Part shown: positions 6,979 to 11,002 of the stretch, in pieces
Layout: every line of letters starts with the position of its first letter
Numbering within the stretch: position 1 is the stretch's first letter
Virus record (IMG/VR): IMGVR_UViG_2778261417_000008
Coordinates: 1-33,955 of that record
Source of the DNA: a virus
Taxonomy: Duplodnaviria; Heunggongvirae; Uroviricota; Caudoviricetes
DNA: 33,955 nt
Strand: one strand, 5' to 3'
Position numbers and translations under genes: made by a program
Notes under the pieces: model-generated
Databases searched by the model: none
Seen by the model: the letters and a program-made list of their open reading frames with translations, nothing else
What the model was told of the DNA's origin: nothing

Positions 6979-7106
6979 AAAAATCCCTTTTAGTTACCGC
7001 TGATAGCGCGGTTGTAATCATTAACGTTGCGATTCTTCCTGTTAATCCCCATCAGCATCGTTTCTGAACCGCCCCGGGTTTCCTGGAGAGTGTTTTATCT
7101 GTGAAC

Positions 7107-7579
7107 TCAGGCTGCCAGATCATCGTTTCCGATGGAAGCATAATAAGCTTTTTCTGCTTCTGCCGGAGGAGTATGGCCCAGCCTTCCCAGCAATCGTCGA
7201 TTGTTATACCAGTCCACCCACGTTAGTGTGGCCAGTTCCACTTCTGCACGGTTTTTCCAGCTCTTACGGTGTATTACCTCCGCTTTGTAAAGACCATTGA
7301 TGCTCTCAGCCATCGCGTTGTCATACGAGTCGCCTGTACTCCCTGTTGATGCCAGTAATCCGGCTTCTTTTAGTCGCTCCGTATAGGCCAGTGACACATA
7401 CTGAGAGCCTTTATCGCTGTGATGGATGGTGCCAGACGGACGACGGGCCCACAACGCCTGCTCCAGCGCATCCAGCACGAATGTCGTTTCCATAGACGAT
7501 GAGACCCGCCACCCCACGATGTATCCGGCAAACACATCAATGATAAACGCCACATAGACGAAGCCCTGCCATGTGCTGA
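7107..7579 (-). CDS. IS3-family transposase OrfB, C-terminal exon (downstream of the intron)
   Basis: Translation …[23 protein letters not shown]…[10 protein letters not shown]…[16 protein letters not shown]… is the DDE integrase core. Confidence 0.85.
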
Positions 7580-9849
7580 GTAGAGTAAGAGGCAGGGCGT
7601 AGTCGGACTATTTCCCTGCCTCTCCTCCCCGAACCGGACGTGCACCTTTCAGCGCATCCGGCTCTCCATTTAAATGCTGGCGAACGCCATTGCCACTTCT
7701 GTAAAGCGCGATGTATACGTGTTTCTGGTCTCCGTCCTCAGATAGGGATTACCTTCGGGTAGCCGCCAGCGGAACAGCTTCTTGCCTTGCCCCACCAACC
7801 GGTACAGTATTTCGCCGCTGAGCTTGCCGTGATTGGTTTTACCAAATAAAACCCACGTTTTGCTCTGACCCGGTTTCGGTGATTTACACCACCACCTCAT
7901 CAGGGAAGCGATACCTGTACGGTATTTGCGGGCCAGCCAGTGAGCCAGCTTCCAGAACACGACACGGTCGATATAACTGAAGACTTTGGCCTTAAAATCA
8001 ACGAACTGATAGAACATGGCCCAGCCTTTCAGTTTTCGGTTGAGTTGTTCAGCCATATCGACTTTGCTTTCACTGTAGTTGCCTGATAACAGTGCTGTCA
8101 GCGATGCGGCGAAGTTTCTGGCTTTCTCCTGCGGGATCGTTGAGACCACTCGCATCTCGCCATAACGACTGCGTTTGCGAATGATCCTGTGCCCCAGAAA
8201 GATAAAGCCGTCATTAACATGGGTGATTTTAGTCTTATCCATGTTCAGCCTGAGTTTCAGACTGCCTTCGAGCACACCCCGACACTCCTCCCTGATGGCT
8301 TCCGCCTGTGCTTTGGTGCCTTTGACGATGAGGACAAAATCATCGGCATAGCGGCAGTACGCCACCGCGGGTTTCCACTGCCAGTTTTCTCTGACCGCCG
8401 TACTTCGGCCCCGTTGGATACTGTTATTCCAGTACCACCGATCTTTTCTGGCTTTCCCGCTCAGGTAGCGCTCATGCAGGTATTGATCGAACTCATTCAG
8501 CATGATGTTCGATAATAGCGGCGATATAACACCGCCCTGTGGCACACCTTCACTGGCCGCCCGAAAGAGACCGACATCGATATGTCCCGCCTTGATGGTT
8601 TTCCACAGCAGAGTCATGAAACGTGCGTCACTGATCCTGCGGCGTACAGCCTTCATCAGCAGTCGATGATGTACGGTGTCGAAGTAACTGGACAGGTCGC
8701 CTTCAATCACCCTGCGTCCCCGGGTTTCACCACAGTCTGTGAGCTGTAATTTCACCGTGCGGATAGCGTGGTGGACACTGCGCTCAGGCCGGAAGCCATA
8801 TGAGAGCGTATGAAAATCACTCTCCCATATCGGCTCCATCGCCATCAGCATGGCCCGCTGAACAATACGATCCCGCAACGCGGGGATACCCAGTGGTCGC
8901 AGTTTGCCGTTGCTTTTAGGGATGTAAACCCGTCTGGCGGGCAAGGGCTGGTAGTGGCCTGAGAGTAATTCATCCCTGAGGATTTGCAGCTCAACAGCCA
9001 GTCTGGCCTGTAGCATTGTTTTGTTCACGCCATCAACGCCGGGGGTATGGGCCCCCTTTGATGAAAGCGTGATCCGCGCCGCTTCAGCCAGCCATTCTGG
9101 TTGTGTTATCAGACGCAGCAGCCGTTGAATCCGTAGGGACGGATCGGTGACTGCCCATGTGGCAAGCTTGCGTTGCATTTCGCTGATTATCAAAGGTCTT
9201 CACCTCGTTAGGTCAGTTAATTCACGTCGCAAACACATTCAAACTGCTTCCCTTCGCCATGTAATGGGCTTTCCCCATCGCGGACTACTACGGAAGCTCC
9301 GCCAGCCAGCGCGTCATCGGAGCCATGCCCCCTTAACATCCGTCGCTGACCTTCCCCGGTTTACCTGCCTGGACTCAGGCATACTGAGGAGGCTGCCCGT
9401 CGCACTCTTTATCCTTGCTTGCCGCAAGTTGGCAGAAGTCAGCAACGCAAGCGTGATAGACGCTGCTGCCCCGGTGTTTCGCATACATGTCAAAACACCT
9501 TCGACCGGCAGTGCTTACGTATCACTGCCAGTTCCTCCTGCACGGCCTGTCAGATCACGTAGGCCGTGGTGACGTTTTCAACCCACAGAGGCGGATTAAC
9601 GGGTTCATGTTCTTCAGCCTTTCAGTACTTAACCTTGAGGATCATCTCGGCTTAGTGATCTCGCCTCAATCCCCGTTGTCAGCGGGTTACATCACCCTGC
9701 GGGCATGCCGCAGGTCACTGCCGCTCAGGTTCTCCACCGTCACACCCGGTGGGATTGTTGGGTTTCTCATCGTGAGTTACCGGTTCAATATTCCAGACAG
9801 ACTCGCGGTTCATTTAAGCATCCATGCCCGCCCTGAACTCCGGGCACAC
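7580..9849 (-). mobile_element. Group II intron (2270 bp) inserted in the IS transposase orfB
   Basis: 5' end GTGTG at 9849-9845 (minus strand). Domain V consensus gagccggatgcgctgaaaggtgcacgtccggttc at 7631-7664 (minus). 3' end …tctAC at 7580. Removing it restores the frame …QLWVADFTY|[10 protein letters not shown]…. Confidence 0.85.
7670..9193 (-). CDS. Group II intron-encoded reverse transcriptase/maturase
   Basis: RT motifs (…LRPLGIPALRDRIVQ…, …YCRYADDFVLIV…) followed by a maturase X-like region; stop lies immediately upstream of domain V. Confidence 0.9.
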   Translation of the reverse strand: MIISEMQRKLATWAVTDPSLRIQRLLRLITQPEWLAEAARITLSSKGAHTPGVDGVNKTMLQARLAVELQILRDELLSGHYQPLPARRVYIPKSNGKLRPLGIPALRDRIVQRAMLMAMEPIWESDFHTLSYGFRPERSVHHAIRTVKLQLTDCGETRGRRVIEGDLSSYFDTVHHRLLMKAVRRRISDARFMTLLWKTIKAGHIDVGLFRAASEGVPQGGVISPLLSNIMLNEFDQYLHERYLSGKARKDRWYWNNSIQRGRSTAVRENWQWKPAVAYCRYADDFVLIVKGTKAQAEAIREECRGVLEGSLKLRLNMDKTKITHVNDGFIFLGHRIIRKRSRYGEMRVVSTIPQEKARNFAASLTALLSGNYSESKVDMAEQLNRKLKGWAMFYQFVDFKAKVFSYIDRVVFWKLAHWLARKYRTGIASLMRWWCKSPKPGQSKTWVLFGKTNHGKLSGEILYRLVGQGKKLFRWRLPEGNPYLRTETRNTYTSRFTEVAMAFASI

Positions 9850-10267
9850 CGTAAGTAAAATCAGCCACCCACAGCTGGTCAGGTCGTTCTGCCACGAACT
9901 GACGGTTTACGCGGTCGCCTGCGGCAACGGCTTTCCGGCTGATGGTCGTACGGACCTTTTTACCCCGGAGAACACCGGCAAGTCCCATAACCGCCATGAG
10001 ACGTGCCACAGTGCATCTGGCCACTCTGATACCTTCCCGTAACAACTGACGCCAGACTTTACGCACACCGTATACCTTGTGATTTTCATCGTATACGCGC
10101 TGTATCTCTTTCTTCAGCCAGTCATTGCGCTGCGCACGGGCACTGCGTTTATCCGGATGATGTCGCTGTTGCTGACAGTGGTAATACGTTGACGGGGCAA
10201 TATGTAGTTCACTGCATACCGGTCCGACCCCGTACAGCTTACGCAGCTTATCCAGCAGTGGCATCAC
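9850..10267 (-). CDS. IS3-family transposase OrfB, N-terminal exon (upstream of the intron)
   Basis: …QLWVADFTY is the first D of the DDE motif; the ORF-track frame then reads on into intron sequence. Confidence 0.8.
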
Positions 10268-10590
10268 TTTTTCCAGAGGCGGTCGAACTCCGCCTTCGCA
10301 AAATAAGCGGAAGCCTGGCGAAGGATATCGTTACTGCGGCGCAGTTCACGATTTTCACGTTCCAGCTCTTTCAGACGCTGACGTTCAGCGGTGGTGAGCC
10401 CTCCATCACCGCCCCCGGTATCCCGCTCATGCTGGCGAACCCAGACACGCAGAGTCTCCGGCGTACAGCCAATCTTTGGAGCAATGGAACAAATTGTCGC
10501 CCATTGTGAGTCATATTCGCTCTGACTTTCCAGAACCATACGGACTGCCCGTTGACGGACTTCGGGGGAAAAACGAGTATTTTTAGTCAT
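10264..10590 (-). CDS. IS3-family OrfA (HTH/leucine-zipper transposase subunit), IS629-like
   Basis: 108-aa translation [22 protein letters not shown]…[33 protein letters not shown] matches IS629/IS1203 OrfA from memory. Confidence 0.85.
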
Positions 10591-10644
10591 CCTGTTTACC
10601 TCTTTCTCAGGAAGTTTAGTCTCCAGGATTCCCGGGGCGGTTCA

Positions 10645-11002
10645 CTATTACCTGGCCGTCGTATTGGAAATGGCGAATCATTTCGCGGATCCAGGTGGCA
10701 GGTGGGAGTTTTAATTTTTTGCCAACAGTCATACCCTGAGACTCATCCTCAAGCCCGGCGGCGAGCGTCACAACCCAGCGTAGCTCTGCTATGCCCCACA
10801 TACGGTAAGCCAGCAAATCCGGGCGATATTGCTCATCGGGAAGAACGTAATAAATCGTCAGATTCTTGTCGTTCGATTCACACATAAGCATCACCTCTTT
10901 GCGTAGCTCTGCCCTGAGTATTGGATCGGCTATGTTGCGGTCGTCATACCGCGACAGAGGATATTGCCGGGTGCTTTGGGTTGTAGTGATTGATGTAGCC
11001 AT
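10645..11002 (-). pseudogene. Hypothetical protein, 3' end truncated by the IS629-like insertion
   Basis: ORF 10616-11002 reads through the IS terminus at 10644; its C-terminal residues are IS-encoded. Confidence 0.5.

What the first reader, a model, noticed from the sequence alone, without database searches (positions are those of the whole stretch)
7040..11002. The IS629-like element has no target-site duplication and truncates the neighbouring gene: probable rearrangement joint
The bases flanking the IS (ttc on the left, cta on the right) are not a direct repeat, whereas IS3-family insertions normally leave 3-4 bp duplications. The ORF at 10645-11002 also loses its native 3' end in the IS. 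Together these suggest an IS-mediated deletion or recombination, which would explain why the gene content between the replicon and the ppp-containing operon is so short for a P1-like genome.
Basis: inference. Interest (0 to 1): 0.45.

Follow-up and report, generated by a model that had tools for sequence, protein, structure and literature searches.

The report
IS629 sits at a 16-kb deletion joint
A mobile element (IS629 carrying a group II intron) in this P1-like phage-plasmid marks the spot where about 15-16 kb, including the helicase, methylase and most baseplate/tail genes, was deleted; this is an ordinary, well-known kind of IS-mediated genome decay.

Summary
The observation and the interpretation both hold. 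The element spans window 7065-10644: a 1310-bp IS629/IS1203-family IS split by a 2270-bp E.c.I4-type group II intron. Its flanks are TTC and CTA, so there is no 3- or 4-bp duplication. Five of six simple insertions of the same IS family checked as controls have perfect 3-bp duplications; the sixth has 2 bp.

In P1 and in full-length relatives the two flanks are collinear but 14.7-16.0 kb apart. Missing are most of mlp, ppfA, upfB, uhr, hrdC/rdgC, dmt, ban, dbn and genes 5, 6, 24, 7 and 25. Gene 26 (natively 125 aa) keeps residues 1-119; its last 6 residues are replaced by 9 IS-encoded ones.

The joint is real. A second, independent assembly carries both junctions with 5 SNPs in 15 kb, and three more contigs carry the right junction. 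No complete plasmid or complete E. coli genome searched has either junction.

The sequence cannot show whether the deletion arose by recombination between two IS copies or by a transposase-driven adjacent deletion. Related plasmids carry other IS1203-anchored deletions nested in the same region.

This is an ordinary case of low novelty. One oddity remains: the identical IS-gene 26 junction also occurs on a backbone about 2% diverged.

The parts
6586..6978 (-). upfA homologue (130 aa), last intact gene on the replicon side of the joint
   Evidence: ORF. It is collinear with P1 upfA and with the pO111_2 gene at L005 4817-5209.
6990..7064 (-). Remnant of mlp: its last 24 codons plus stop; the 5' part is deleted
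   Evidence: The translation ETMLMGINRKNRNVNDYNRAISGN* equals the C-terminus of P1 Mlp (110 aa) and of the 46-aa ORF of pO111_2.
7062..7067 (.). Left junction: flank ...TTC | TGAACC... (IRR end of the IS)
   Evidence: Intact relatives read ...CGTTTC|TGTATC... here (85 IMG/VR contigs; many PLSDB plasmids).
7065..10644 (-). IS629/IS1203-family insertion sequence (1310 bp of IS in two pieces) interrupted by a group II intron; 3580 bp in all
   Evidence: Terminal repeats and full-length alignment to IS1203. The composite is 99.0-99.6% identical to copies in ETEC plasmids and in E. coli 55989/O104:H4.
7065..7579 (-). IS piece 1: IRR end and 3' part of orfB (rve/DDE domain)
   Evidence: Pfam rve on the 148-aa product.
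7580..9849 (-). Group II intron (E.c.I4-type), sense to the transposase; 5' GTGTG ... 3' CTAC
   Evidence: Boundaries come from the intron-less IS. Rfam Intron_gpII matches 7580-7666 at 64.9 bits. There are 5 mismatches in 2270 nt to an E. coli 55989 copy. The E.c.I4 name and its IS629 homing site are from PMC3522654.
7670..9193 (-). Intron-encoded reverse transcriptase/maturase ORF
   Evidence: Pfam RVT_1 (2.6e-33) and GIIM (1.3e-10).
9850..10644 (-). IS piece 2: IRL end, orfA (10264-10590), frameshift region and 5' part of orfB
   Evidence: After removing the intron, orfA (108 aa) and orfB read through uninterrupted across the exon junction. Rfam ALIL pseudoknot matches 10193-10309 at 116 bits.
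10642..10647 (.). Right junction: ...GGTTCA | CTA... (IRL end joined to codon 120 of gene 26)
   Evidence: The same junction is present in L097, L098, L006 and L099.
10616..11002 (-). gp26' fusion ORF: 119 native residues of baseplate protein gp26 plus 9 IS-encoded residues
   Evidence: This exact 128-aa product is called on 6 contigs of public assemblies.
11032..11091 (.). Retained divergent late promoters LP26/LPpmgL and C1 operator O26 (by homology to the P1 annotation)
   Evidence: A gap-free alignment to P1 gives 1 mismatch each in LP26 and LPpmgL; the operator is identical. Function is inferred, not tested.

Best explanation
The IS629::intron element marks a real, inherited deletion joint in a P1-like phage-plasmid. 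The DNA between codon ~86 of mlp and codon 120 of gene 26 was lost: 14.7 kb in P1 coordinates, 16.0 kb in pO111_2 coordinates. A single IS copy sits at the joint. Its left flank is the former left side of one target site and its right flank is the former right side of another, which is why there is no target-site duplication.

Most likely order of events (inferred): an IS629 copy first inserted into the 3' end of gene 26. That junction is the one seen in several assemblies, including an unrelated backbone. The segment between the IRR end and mlp was then removed. My split for how: about 0.5 for RecA recombination with a second, directly oriented copy that had inserted in mlp; about 0.4 for a transposase-driven (possibly IEE-assisted) intramolecular adjacent deletion. 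The excised circle has no replicon and is lost.

Consequence: the plasmid keeps rep, par, phd/doc and c1. It lacks ban, dmt and the baseplate/tail genes 5, 6, 24, 7 and 25, and has a C-terminally altered gp26. On the genes seen in this window it is a plasmid that cannot build tails. Shown: the joint, what is missing, and that it recurs in independent assemblies. Inferred: the order of events, the mechanism and the phenotype.
For: There is no TSD at exactly defined IS ends. Five of six control insertions of the same IS family have perfect 3-bp TSDs. The flanks are collinear with P1 and pO111_2 but 14,669 and 16,048 bp apart, and none of the intervening DNA is anywhere in the window. Both flanking genes are cut inside their reading frames. 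An independent assembly, GCA_021453525.1, has both junctions with 5 SNPs in 15,135 bp. GCA_000700185.1 and an IMG/VR contig have the right junction with 15-20 SNPs. The contig reads through the 3.58-kb element although it breaks at IS1 and IS2, so the element behaves as single-copy in that assembly. Sister plasmids p95JB1A and pE2855-2 carry IS1203 in the same orientation, also without TSD, at smaller deletions nested in the same interval. IS629-associated deletions and IEE-enhanced deletion events are described in the literature.
Against: No precursor was found: no relative has IS629 in mlp or in gene 26 with a TSD and the intervening DNA intact. The order of events and the mechanism are therefore not shown. 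The left junction is supported by only two assemblies. The rest of the replicon is not in the window, so relocation of the 16 kb elsewhere in the genome is not strictly excluded. The mosaic IS sequence that first looked like a two-copy recombination scar is a circulating variant and carries no weight.
Confidence: 0.9

Rival explanations
1. Intermolecular origin: two different P1-like plasmids, or a plasmid and an infecting P1-like phage, each carried an IS629 copy, one in mlp and one in gene 26. They recombined through the IS and resolved into a chimera, so the 'deletion' is a by-product of fusing two parents.
For: The two flanks differ in their distance to particular relatives. Left flank versus pO111_2 is 98.7-99.3% identical and right flank 96.7%. 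The best left and right relatives in PLSDB are mostly different records. P1-like backbones are known mosaics.
Against: Both flanks have nearest relatives at similar identity (99.5% and 99.3%), and at least one plasmid (NZ_CP033632) is close on both sides. This is the normal mosaic pattern and does not point specifically to a chimera. The model still needs two IS insertions that were not found.
Confidence: 0.07
2. Assembly artefact: the draft assembler joined two unrelated contig ends through a collapsed repeat (IS629::intron).
For: The window is a short-read-style draft contig that ends in IS1 and an IS2-like end. IS629 is multi-copy in many E. coli genomes.
Against: The identical pair of junctions occurs in an independent assembly with 5 SNPs, and the right junction occurs in three further contigs. 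Assemblers normally break at unresolved repeats, as they did in L098, L099 and L006, rather than bridge 3.6 kb. Both flanks belong to the same plasmid type and are in collinear orientation.
Confidence: 0.02
3. Simple insertion into a lineage that never had the 16 kb, with the duplication later lost by mutation.
For: None beyond the fact that short duplications can decay.
Against: Three of three positions would have to differ. Both neighbouring genes are truncated inside conserved ORFs. None of several hundred relatives has the flanks adjacent.
Confidence: 0.01

Closest known systems
IS629/IS1203-associated deletions in EHEC genomes (IS-adjacent deletions; IEE-enhanced excision and deletion, Kusumoto et al. 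2011 as summarised in bioRxiv 10.1101/2023.06.07.543989 and PMC9943667)
   Same: Same IS family. The IS is retained next to a deletion, there is no TSD, and prophage genes are inactivated.
   Different: Here the host is a P1-like plasmid prophage. Involvement of IEE cannot be assessed because iee is not in the window. The junctions share only 2 nt (TG, left) and TC (right) with the intact sites, so there is no usable microhomology.
IS1203-anchored deletions in sister P1-like plasmids p95JB1A (NZ_CP021336) and pE2855-2 (NZ_AP018798)
   Same: Same plasmid family and replicon, same region (between upfA and gene 26), same IS orientation, and no TSD (GTT/GCC and AAC/CCA).
   Different: Their deletions are smaller (about 11.0 and 5.2 kb) and nested inside this one. 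Both junctions differ in each plasmid. Their IS is the intron-less IS1203 variant, which has 31 mismatches to the window's IS. They are therefore independent events.
IS629 interrupted by group II intron E.c.I4 (E. coli 55989, E24377A, ETEC plasmids; Leclercq & Cordaux 2012, PMC3522654)
   Same: Same homing site in orfB and same sense orientation. Identity over the 3580 bp is 99.0-99.6%.
   Different: This exact combination of IS exon variant plus intron was not found at above 99.6% identity outside this plasmid lineage. The intron-less IS variant does circulate at 99.9% identity.
Bacteriophage P1 (NC_005856) gene 26-25-7-24-6-5 baseplate/tail operon
   Same: gp26 residues 1-119 are identical to P1. 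The LP26 promoter and O26 operator are retained. The right flank is collinear with P1 from gene 26 through pap, to the end of the P1 stretch fetched.
   Different: The rest of the operon and the ban/dmt region are absent. The replicon is the pO111-type Rep3 initiator rather than P1 RepA.

Membership tests
IS3 family, IS629/IS1203 group | About 1310 bp with terminal inverted repeats beginning TGAACCGCCCCGG | tested here: met
   1310 bp after removing the intron. Both termini are present. It is 97.6% identical to IS1203 and 99.9% identical to a circulating IS629-family variant.
IS3 family, IS629/IS1203 group | orfA and orfB in the -1 frame with a frameshift-stimulating pseudoknot; DDE (rve) transposase | tested here: met
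   orfA is 108 aa. orfB is continuous once the intron is removed. Rfam ALIL pseudoknot scores 116 bits. Pfam HTH_Tnp_1, HTH_21 and rve match the called products.
Simple IS629 transposition insertion | 3-bp direct target duplication, and flanks contiguous in empty-site relatives | tested here: not met
   The flanks are TTC and CTA, and they lie 14.7-16.0 kb apart in relatives. Controls meet the criterion in 5 of 6 cases.
IS-anchored deletion joint | Single IS without TSD; flanks collinear with but distant in intact relatives; flanking genes truncated; structure reproducible | tested here: met
IS-anchored deletion joint | Identified precursor: two directly repeated IS copies, or one copy with a TSD at one of the two sites | tested here: inconclusive
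   No precursor was found in PLSDB, RefSeq complete E. coli genomes, IMG/VR, JGI metagenomes or GTDB representatives. The draft contigs that carry the right junction break inside the IS.
Mobile group II intron (E.c.I4-type) | 5' GUGYG and 3' AY ends; domain V/VI; intron-encoded RT with maturase domain; homing site in IS629 orfB | tested here: met
   The ends are GTGTG...CTAC. Rfam Intron_gpII matches the 3' end. Pfam RVT_1 and GIIM match the ORF. The position is the same as in the E. coli 55989 copies. The name comes from PMC3522654. Splicing and mobility were not tested.
P1-like phage-plasmid (Punavirus-related) | Synteny and high nucleotide identity with P1 late, immunity and addiction modules plus a plasmid rep/par module | tested here: met
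   The window aligns at 97-99% to P1 and pO111_2 across parB-parA-rep-upfA and 26-pmgL...pap, phd/doc and c1.
P1-like phage-plasmid (Punavirus-related) | Complete set of morphogenetic genes, that is, a functional phage | tested here: not met
   Genes 5, 6, 24, 7 and 25 are absent from the window and 26 is altered. The gene 23 homologue abuts IS1 at the contig end. The rest of the genome was not available.

The most novel reading that the evidence does not exclude
IS629 has a preferred target at one nucleotide in the 3' end of P1 gene 26: the same junction and orientation occur on two backbones about 2% apart. IS629/IS1203-anchored deletions nested between upfA and gene 26 would then be a recurrent, semi-directed route by which P1-like phage-plasmids of pathogenic E. 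coli shed the ban-dmt-tail module and become pure plasmids.
Probability: 0.25. Interest if true: 0.3.

Novelty: new member of a known kind. Interest (0 to 1): 0.13.

Why it matters
The finding explains why this P1-like element is short between its replicon and the ppp operon. On the genes visible here it is a defective prophage kept as a plasmid. It adds one more documented case of IS629-family elements eroding prophages in E. coli. For annotation, the 128-aa ORF should be labelled a truncated gp26 fused to IS sequence, and the 3.58-kb element should be labelled IS629 with an E.c.I4-type intron. It does not open a new question.

Tried and rejected
- **Shifted IS boundaries to rescue a duplication.** None of 2-4 bp exists.
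- **Microhomology at the joints as a sign of end-joining.** The intact sites share only TG (left) and TC (right) with the IS termini, which is chance level.
- **Inversion instead of deletion.** Rejected because both flanks keep the orientation they have in P1 and pO111_2.
- **Hybrid IS as a scar of recombination between two copies.** The IS is 100% IS1203-type from IRR to 10009 and 55989-type IS629 from 10010 to IRL. However, the same intron-less variant circulates at 99.9% identity in about 10 complete genomes, with clean TSDs in the three copies checked, so the lead was dropped.
- **Chimeric origin from flank identities.** Inconclusive.
- **Searches for either junction.**
  - PLSDB, RefSeq complete E. 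coli genomes, JGI metagenomes and GTDB representatives gave nothing.
  - IMG/VR gave the right junction only.
  - Exact-protein look-up of the fusion ORF was what found the source contig and the sister assemblies.
- **Look-ups of UpfA and the GIY-YIG protein, to find the other side of the IS in those assemblies.** These returned only the very common intact arrangement and assorted other IS rearrangements.
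Full report
**What is at the coordinates**

The window carries a 3580-bp element at 7065-10644 with its transposase on the minus strand. Alignment to 1310-bp IS1203 copies of related plasmids, together with the terminal repeats (TGAACCGCCCCGG...), fixes both ends to the nucleotide. The element is an IS629/IS1203-family IS in two pieces, 7065-7579 and 9850-10644, which together make 1310 bp. A 2270-bp group II intron at 7580-9849 separates them.

- The intron begins GTGTG and ends CTAC.
- Rfam places an Intron_gpII match at 7580-7666 and the IS3-type ALIL frameshift pseudoknot at 10193-10309.
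- The intron ORF has RVT_1 and GIIM domains.
- With the intron removed, orfA and orfB are intact.
- The intron differs at 5 of 2270 positions from a copy in E. coli 55989. By the description in PMC3522654 it is the IS629-homing intron E.c.I4.

**The observation**

The bases outside the IS are ...CGTTTC on the left and CTATTACC... on the right, so no duplication of 2-4 bp exists. Two random trinucleotides differ 63 times in 64, so this only means something against controls.

- Three insertions of the same IS variant (one mismatch in 1310 nt) in complete E. coli genomes have perfect 3-bp duplications: GGC, GGG and AAC.
- Two IS1203 copies in pO111_2 have GAC and GAA, and the window contains both corresponding empty sites, at 14198-14200 and 27866-27868.
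- One IS1203 copy, in pMB9880_2, shows only a 2-bp duplication.

The ORF at 10616-11002 (-) is gene 26 of P1. Residues 1-119 are identical to P1 gp26 (125 aa), and the last six residues (GTLSIA) are replaced by nine residues read from the IS end. On the other side, 6990-7064 is the last 24 codons of mlp.

**What is missing**

Both flanks align collinearly, in the same orientation, with P1 and with full-length P1-like plasmids that carry the same Rep3-type replicon.

| Reference | Gap between the two flanks |
|---|---|
| P1 (NC_005856) | 14,669 bp (63,429-78,097) |
| pO111_2 (NC_013370) | 16,048 bp |
| NZ_CP030183 (nearest right-flank relative) | about 14.5 kb |

By the P1 annotation the lost genes are most of mlp, ppfA, upfB, upfC, uhr, hrdC, dmt, three tRNA genes, plp, upl, tciABC, ban, dbn, and the baseplate/tail genes 5, 6, 24, 7 and 25. 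None of this DNA is elsewhere in the window. Because the flanks keep their relative orientation, this is a deletion and not an inversion. The late promoters LP26/LPpmgL and the C1 operator O26 upstream of gene 26 are retained.

**Is the joint real?**

An exact look-up of the 128-aa fusion product identified the window as the whole contig NOSH01000043.1 of GCA_002521985.1. It also found five further contigs with the same product.

- L097 (GCA_021453525.1) spans the whole element and has both junctions, with 5 SNPs in 15,135 bp.
- L098 (GCA_000700185.1) and an IMG/VR contig (L006) have the right junction, with 20 and 15 scattered SNPs. Both break off inside the intron or the IS.

The structure is therefore inherited within a plasmid lineage and is not a one-off misassembly. 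The window's contig ends in IS1 (1-342, with an InsA ORF) and an IS2-like end (33882-33955), yet it reads straight through the 3.58-kb element. This suggests the element is single-copy in that genome. Neither junction exists in PLSDB, in 5,426 complete RefSeq E. coli genomes, in JGI metagenomes or in GTDB representatives. Eighty-five IMG/VR P1-like contigs have the intact left site.

**Context in relatives**

The same stretch is repeatedly damaged in sister plasmids.

- p95JB1A has IS1203 between rdgC and gene 7 (flanks GTT/GCC, about 11.0 kb missing).
- pE2855-2 has IS1203 next to gene 24 (flanks AAC/CCA, about 5.2 kb missing).
- pMB9880_2 has a simple insertion in gene 25.

All are in the same orientation as here, and the deleted intervals are nested inside the window's. 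Both junctions and the IS variant differ in each plasmid, so these are independent events. Two ETEC plasmids replace upfA-gene 25 with 1.2 kb of unrelated DNA. Look-ups of UpfA and the neighbouring GIY-YIG protein show the intact arrangement in the great majority of contigs, plus various other IS rearrangements downstream of upfA.

**Mechanism**

The product is one IS, no duplication, both neighbours truncated, and intervening DNA gone. Two routes both predict this. One is homologous recombination between two directly oriented IS copies. The other is a transposase-driven intramolecular (adjacent) deletion, of the sort reported for IS629 and enhanced by IEE.

I looked for a discriminating scar. 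The IS is IS1203-type from IRR to window 10009 and 55989-type from 10010 to IRL, which looked like a crossover. However, the same intron-less variant circulates at 99.9% identity in about ten complete genomes, so it is not a scar of this event. Microhomology at the joints is at chance level. Flank identities do not single out two different parents. The sub-mechanism therefore stays open.

I put about 0.5 on two-copy recombination, about 0.4 on adjacent deletion and under 0.1 on an intermolecular chimera. All of these sit within a 0.9 confidence that this is an IS-mediated deletion joint.

**One oddity**

L099 (GCA_012918105.2) joins the same IS end to gene 26 at exactly the same nucleotide. 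Its backbone, however, is about 2% different, with the first SNPs 5 and 17 nt from the joint. Common descent would need a crossover within 5 nt, so an independent insertion at the same site is more likely. This suggests the gene 26 junction was the primary insertion, and it hints at a target preference. That contig stops 54 nt into the IS, so the other side is unknown.

**Verdict**

The thing itself is a routine IS-mediated deletion in a decaying P1-like plasmid prophage. It is a new instance of a well-known kind and of low interest.

Noticed in passing
window 7580-9849 (-): An E.c.I4-type group II intron sits in orfB of the IS, in the sense orientation. The RT/maturase ORF is intact and the transposase frame is restored once the intron is removed. 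This is why the 'IS' is 3.58 kb.
   Followed up: yes
L099 (GCA_012918105.2 AATNCC020000081.1), last 60 nt; window 10590-10700: The identical IS629-gene 26 junction lies on a backbone about 2% diverged, with SNPs starting 5 nt from the joint. This may be an insertion hot spot; it is unexplained.
   Followed up: partly
window 1-342 and 33882-33955: The window is an entire draft contig. The left end is IS1 (InsA ORF on the minus strand) abutting the gene 23 (head protein) homologue. The right end looks like an IS2 terminus, identified from memory only. The plasmid therefore carries at least three different IS types.
   Followed up: partly
L001 5628-6937 (p95JB1A); L007 4002-5311 (pE2855-2); L008 4003-5312 (pMB9880_2): Sister plasmids carry IS1203 in the same orientation in the same region. 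Two sit at TSD-less deletions nested inside the window's deletion. One is a simple insertion in gene 25 with only a 2-bp duplication.
   Followed up: yes
window 14198-14200 and 27866-27868: These are the empty target sites (GAC and GAA) of the two IS1203 copies of pO111_2. They served as TSD controls.
   Followed up: yes
window about 17030-23217: This segment has no counterpart in pO111_2. It encodes type I restriction-modification proteins (HsdR, 1038 aa, at about 17105-20221; an HsdS-like protein next to it), where pO111_2 has ead/Ea22-like genes.
   Followed up: no
L121 (NZ_CP029980 7932-11511) and L122 (E. coli 55989 chromosome): Other IS629::E.c.I4 composites also lack target duplications (CAC/ATT and GTA/GGA). 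The IS exon sequences are mosaics between copies, which suggests frequent recombination among IS629-family copies.
   Followed up: partly
L002 1548-2774 and L003 (ETEC plasmids CP122667, NZ_CP122664): In these 66-68 kb relatives, upfA through most of gene 25 is replaced by about 1.2 kb with no similarity to P1, pO111_2 or IS629.
   Followed up: partly
window 25405-27868: The pacA/pacB-side region is only 87% identical to pO111_2, and about 1.1 kb of pO111_2 (90274-91409) has no match. This is a divergent packaging-region allele.
   Followed up: no
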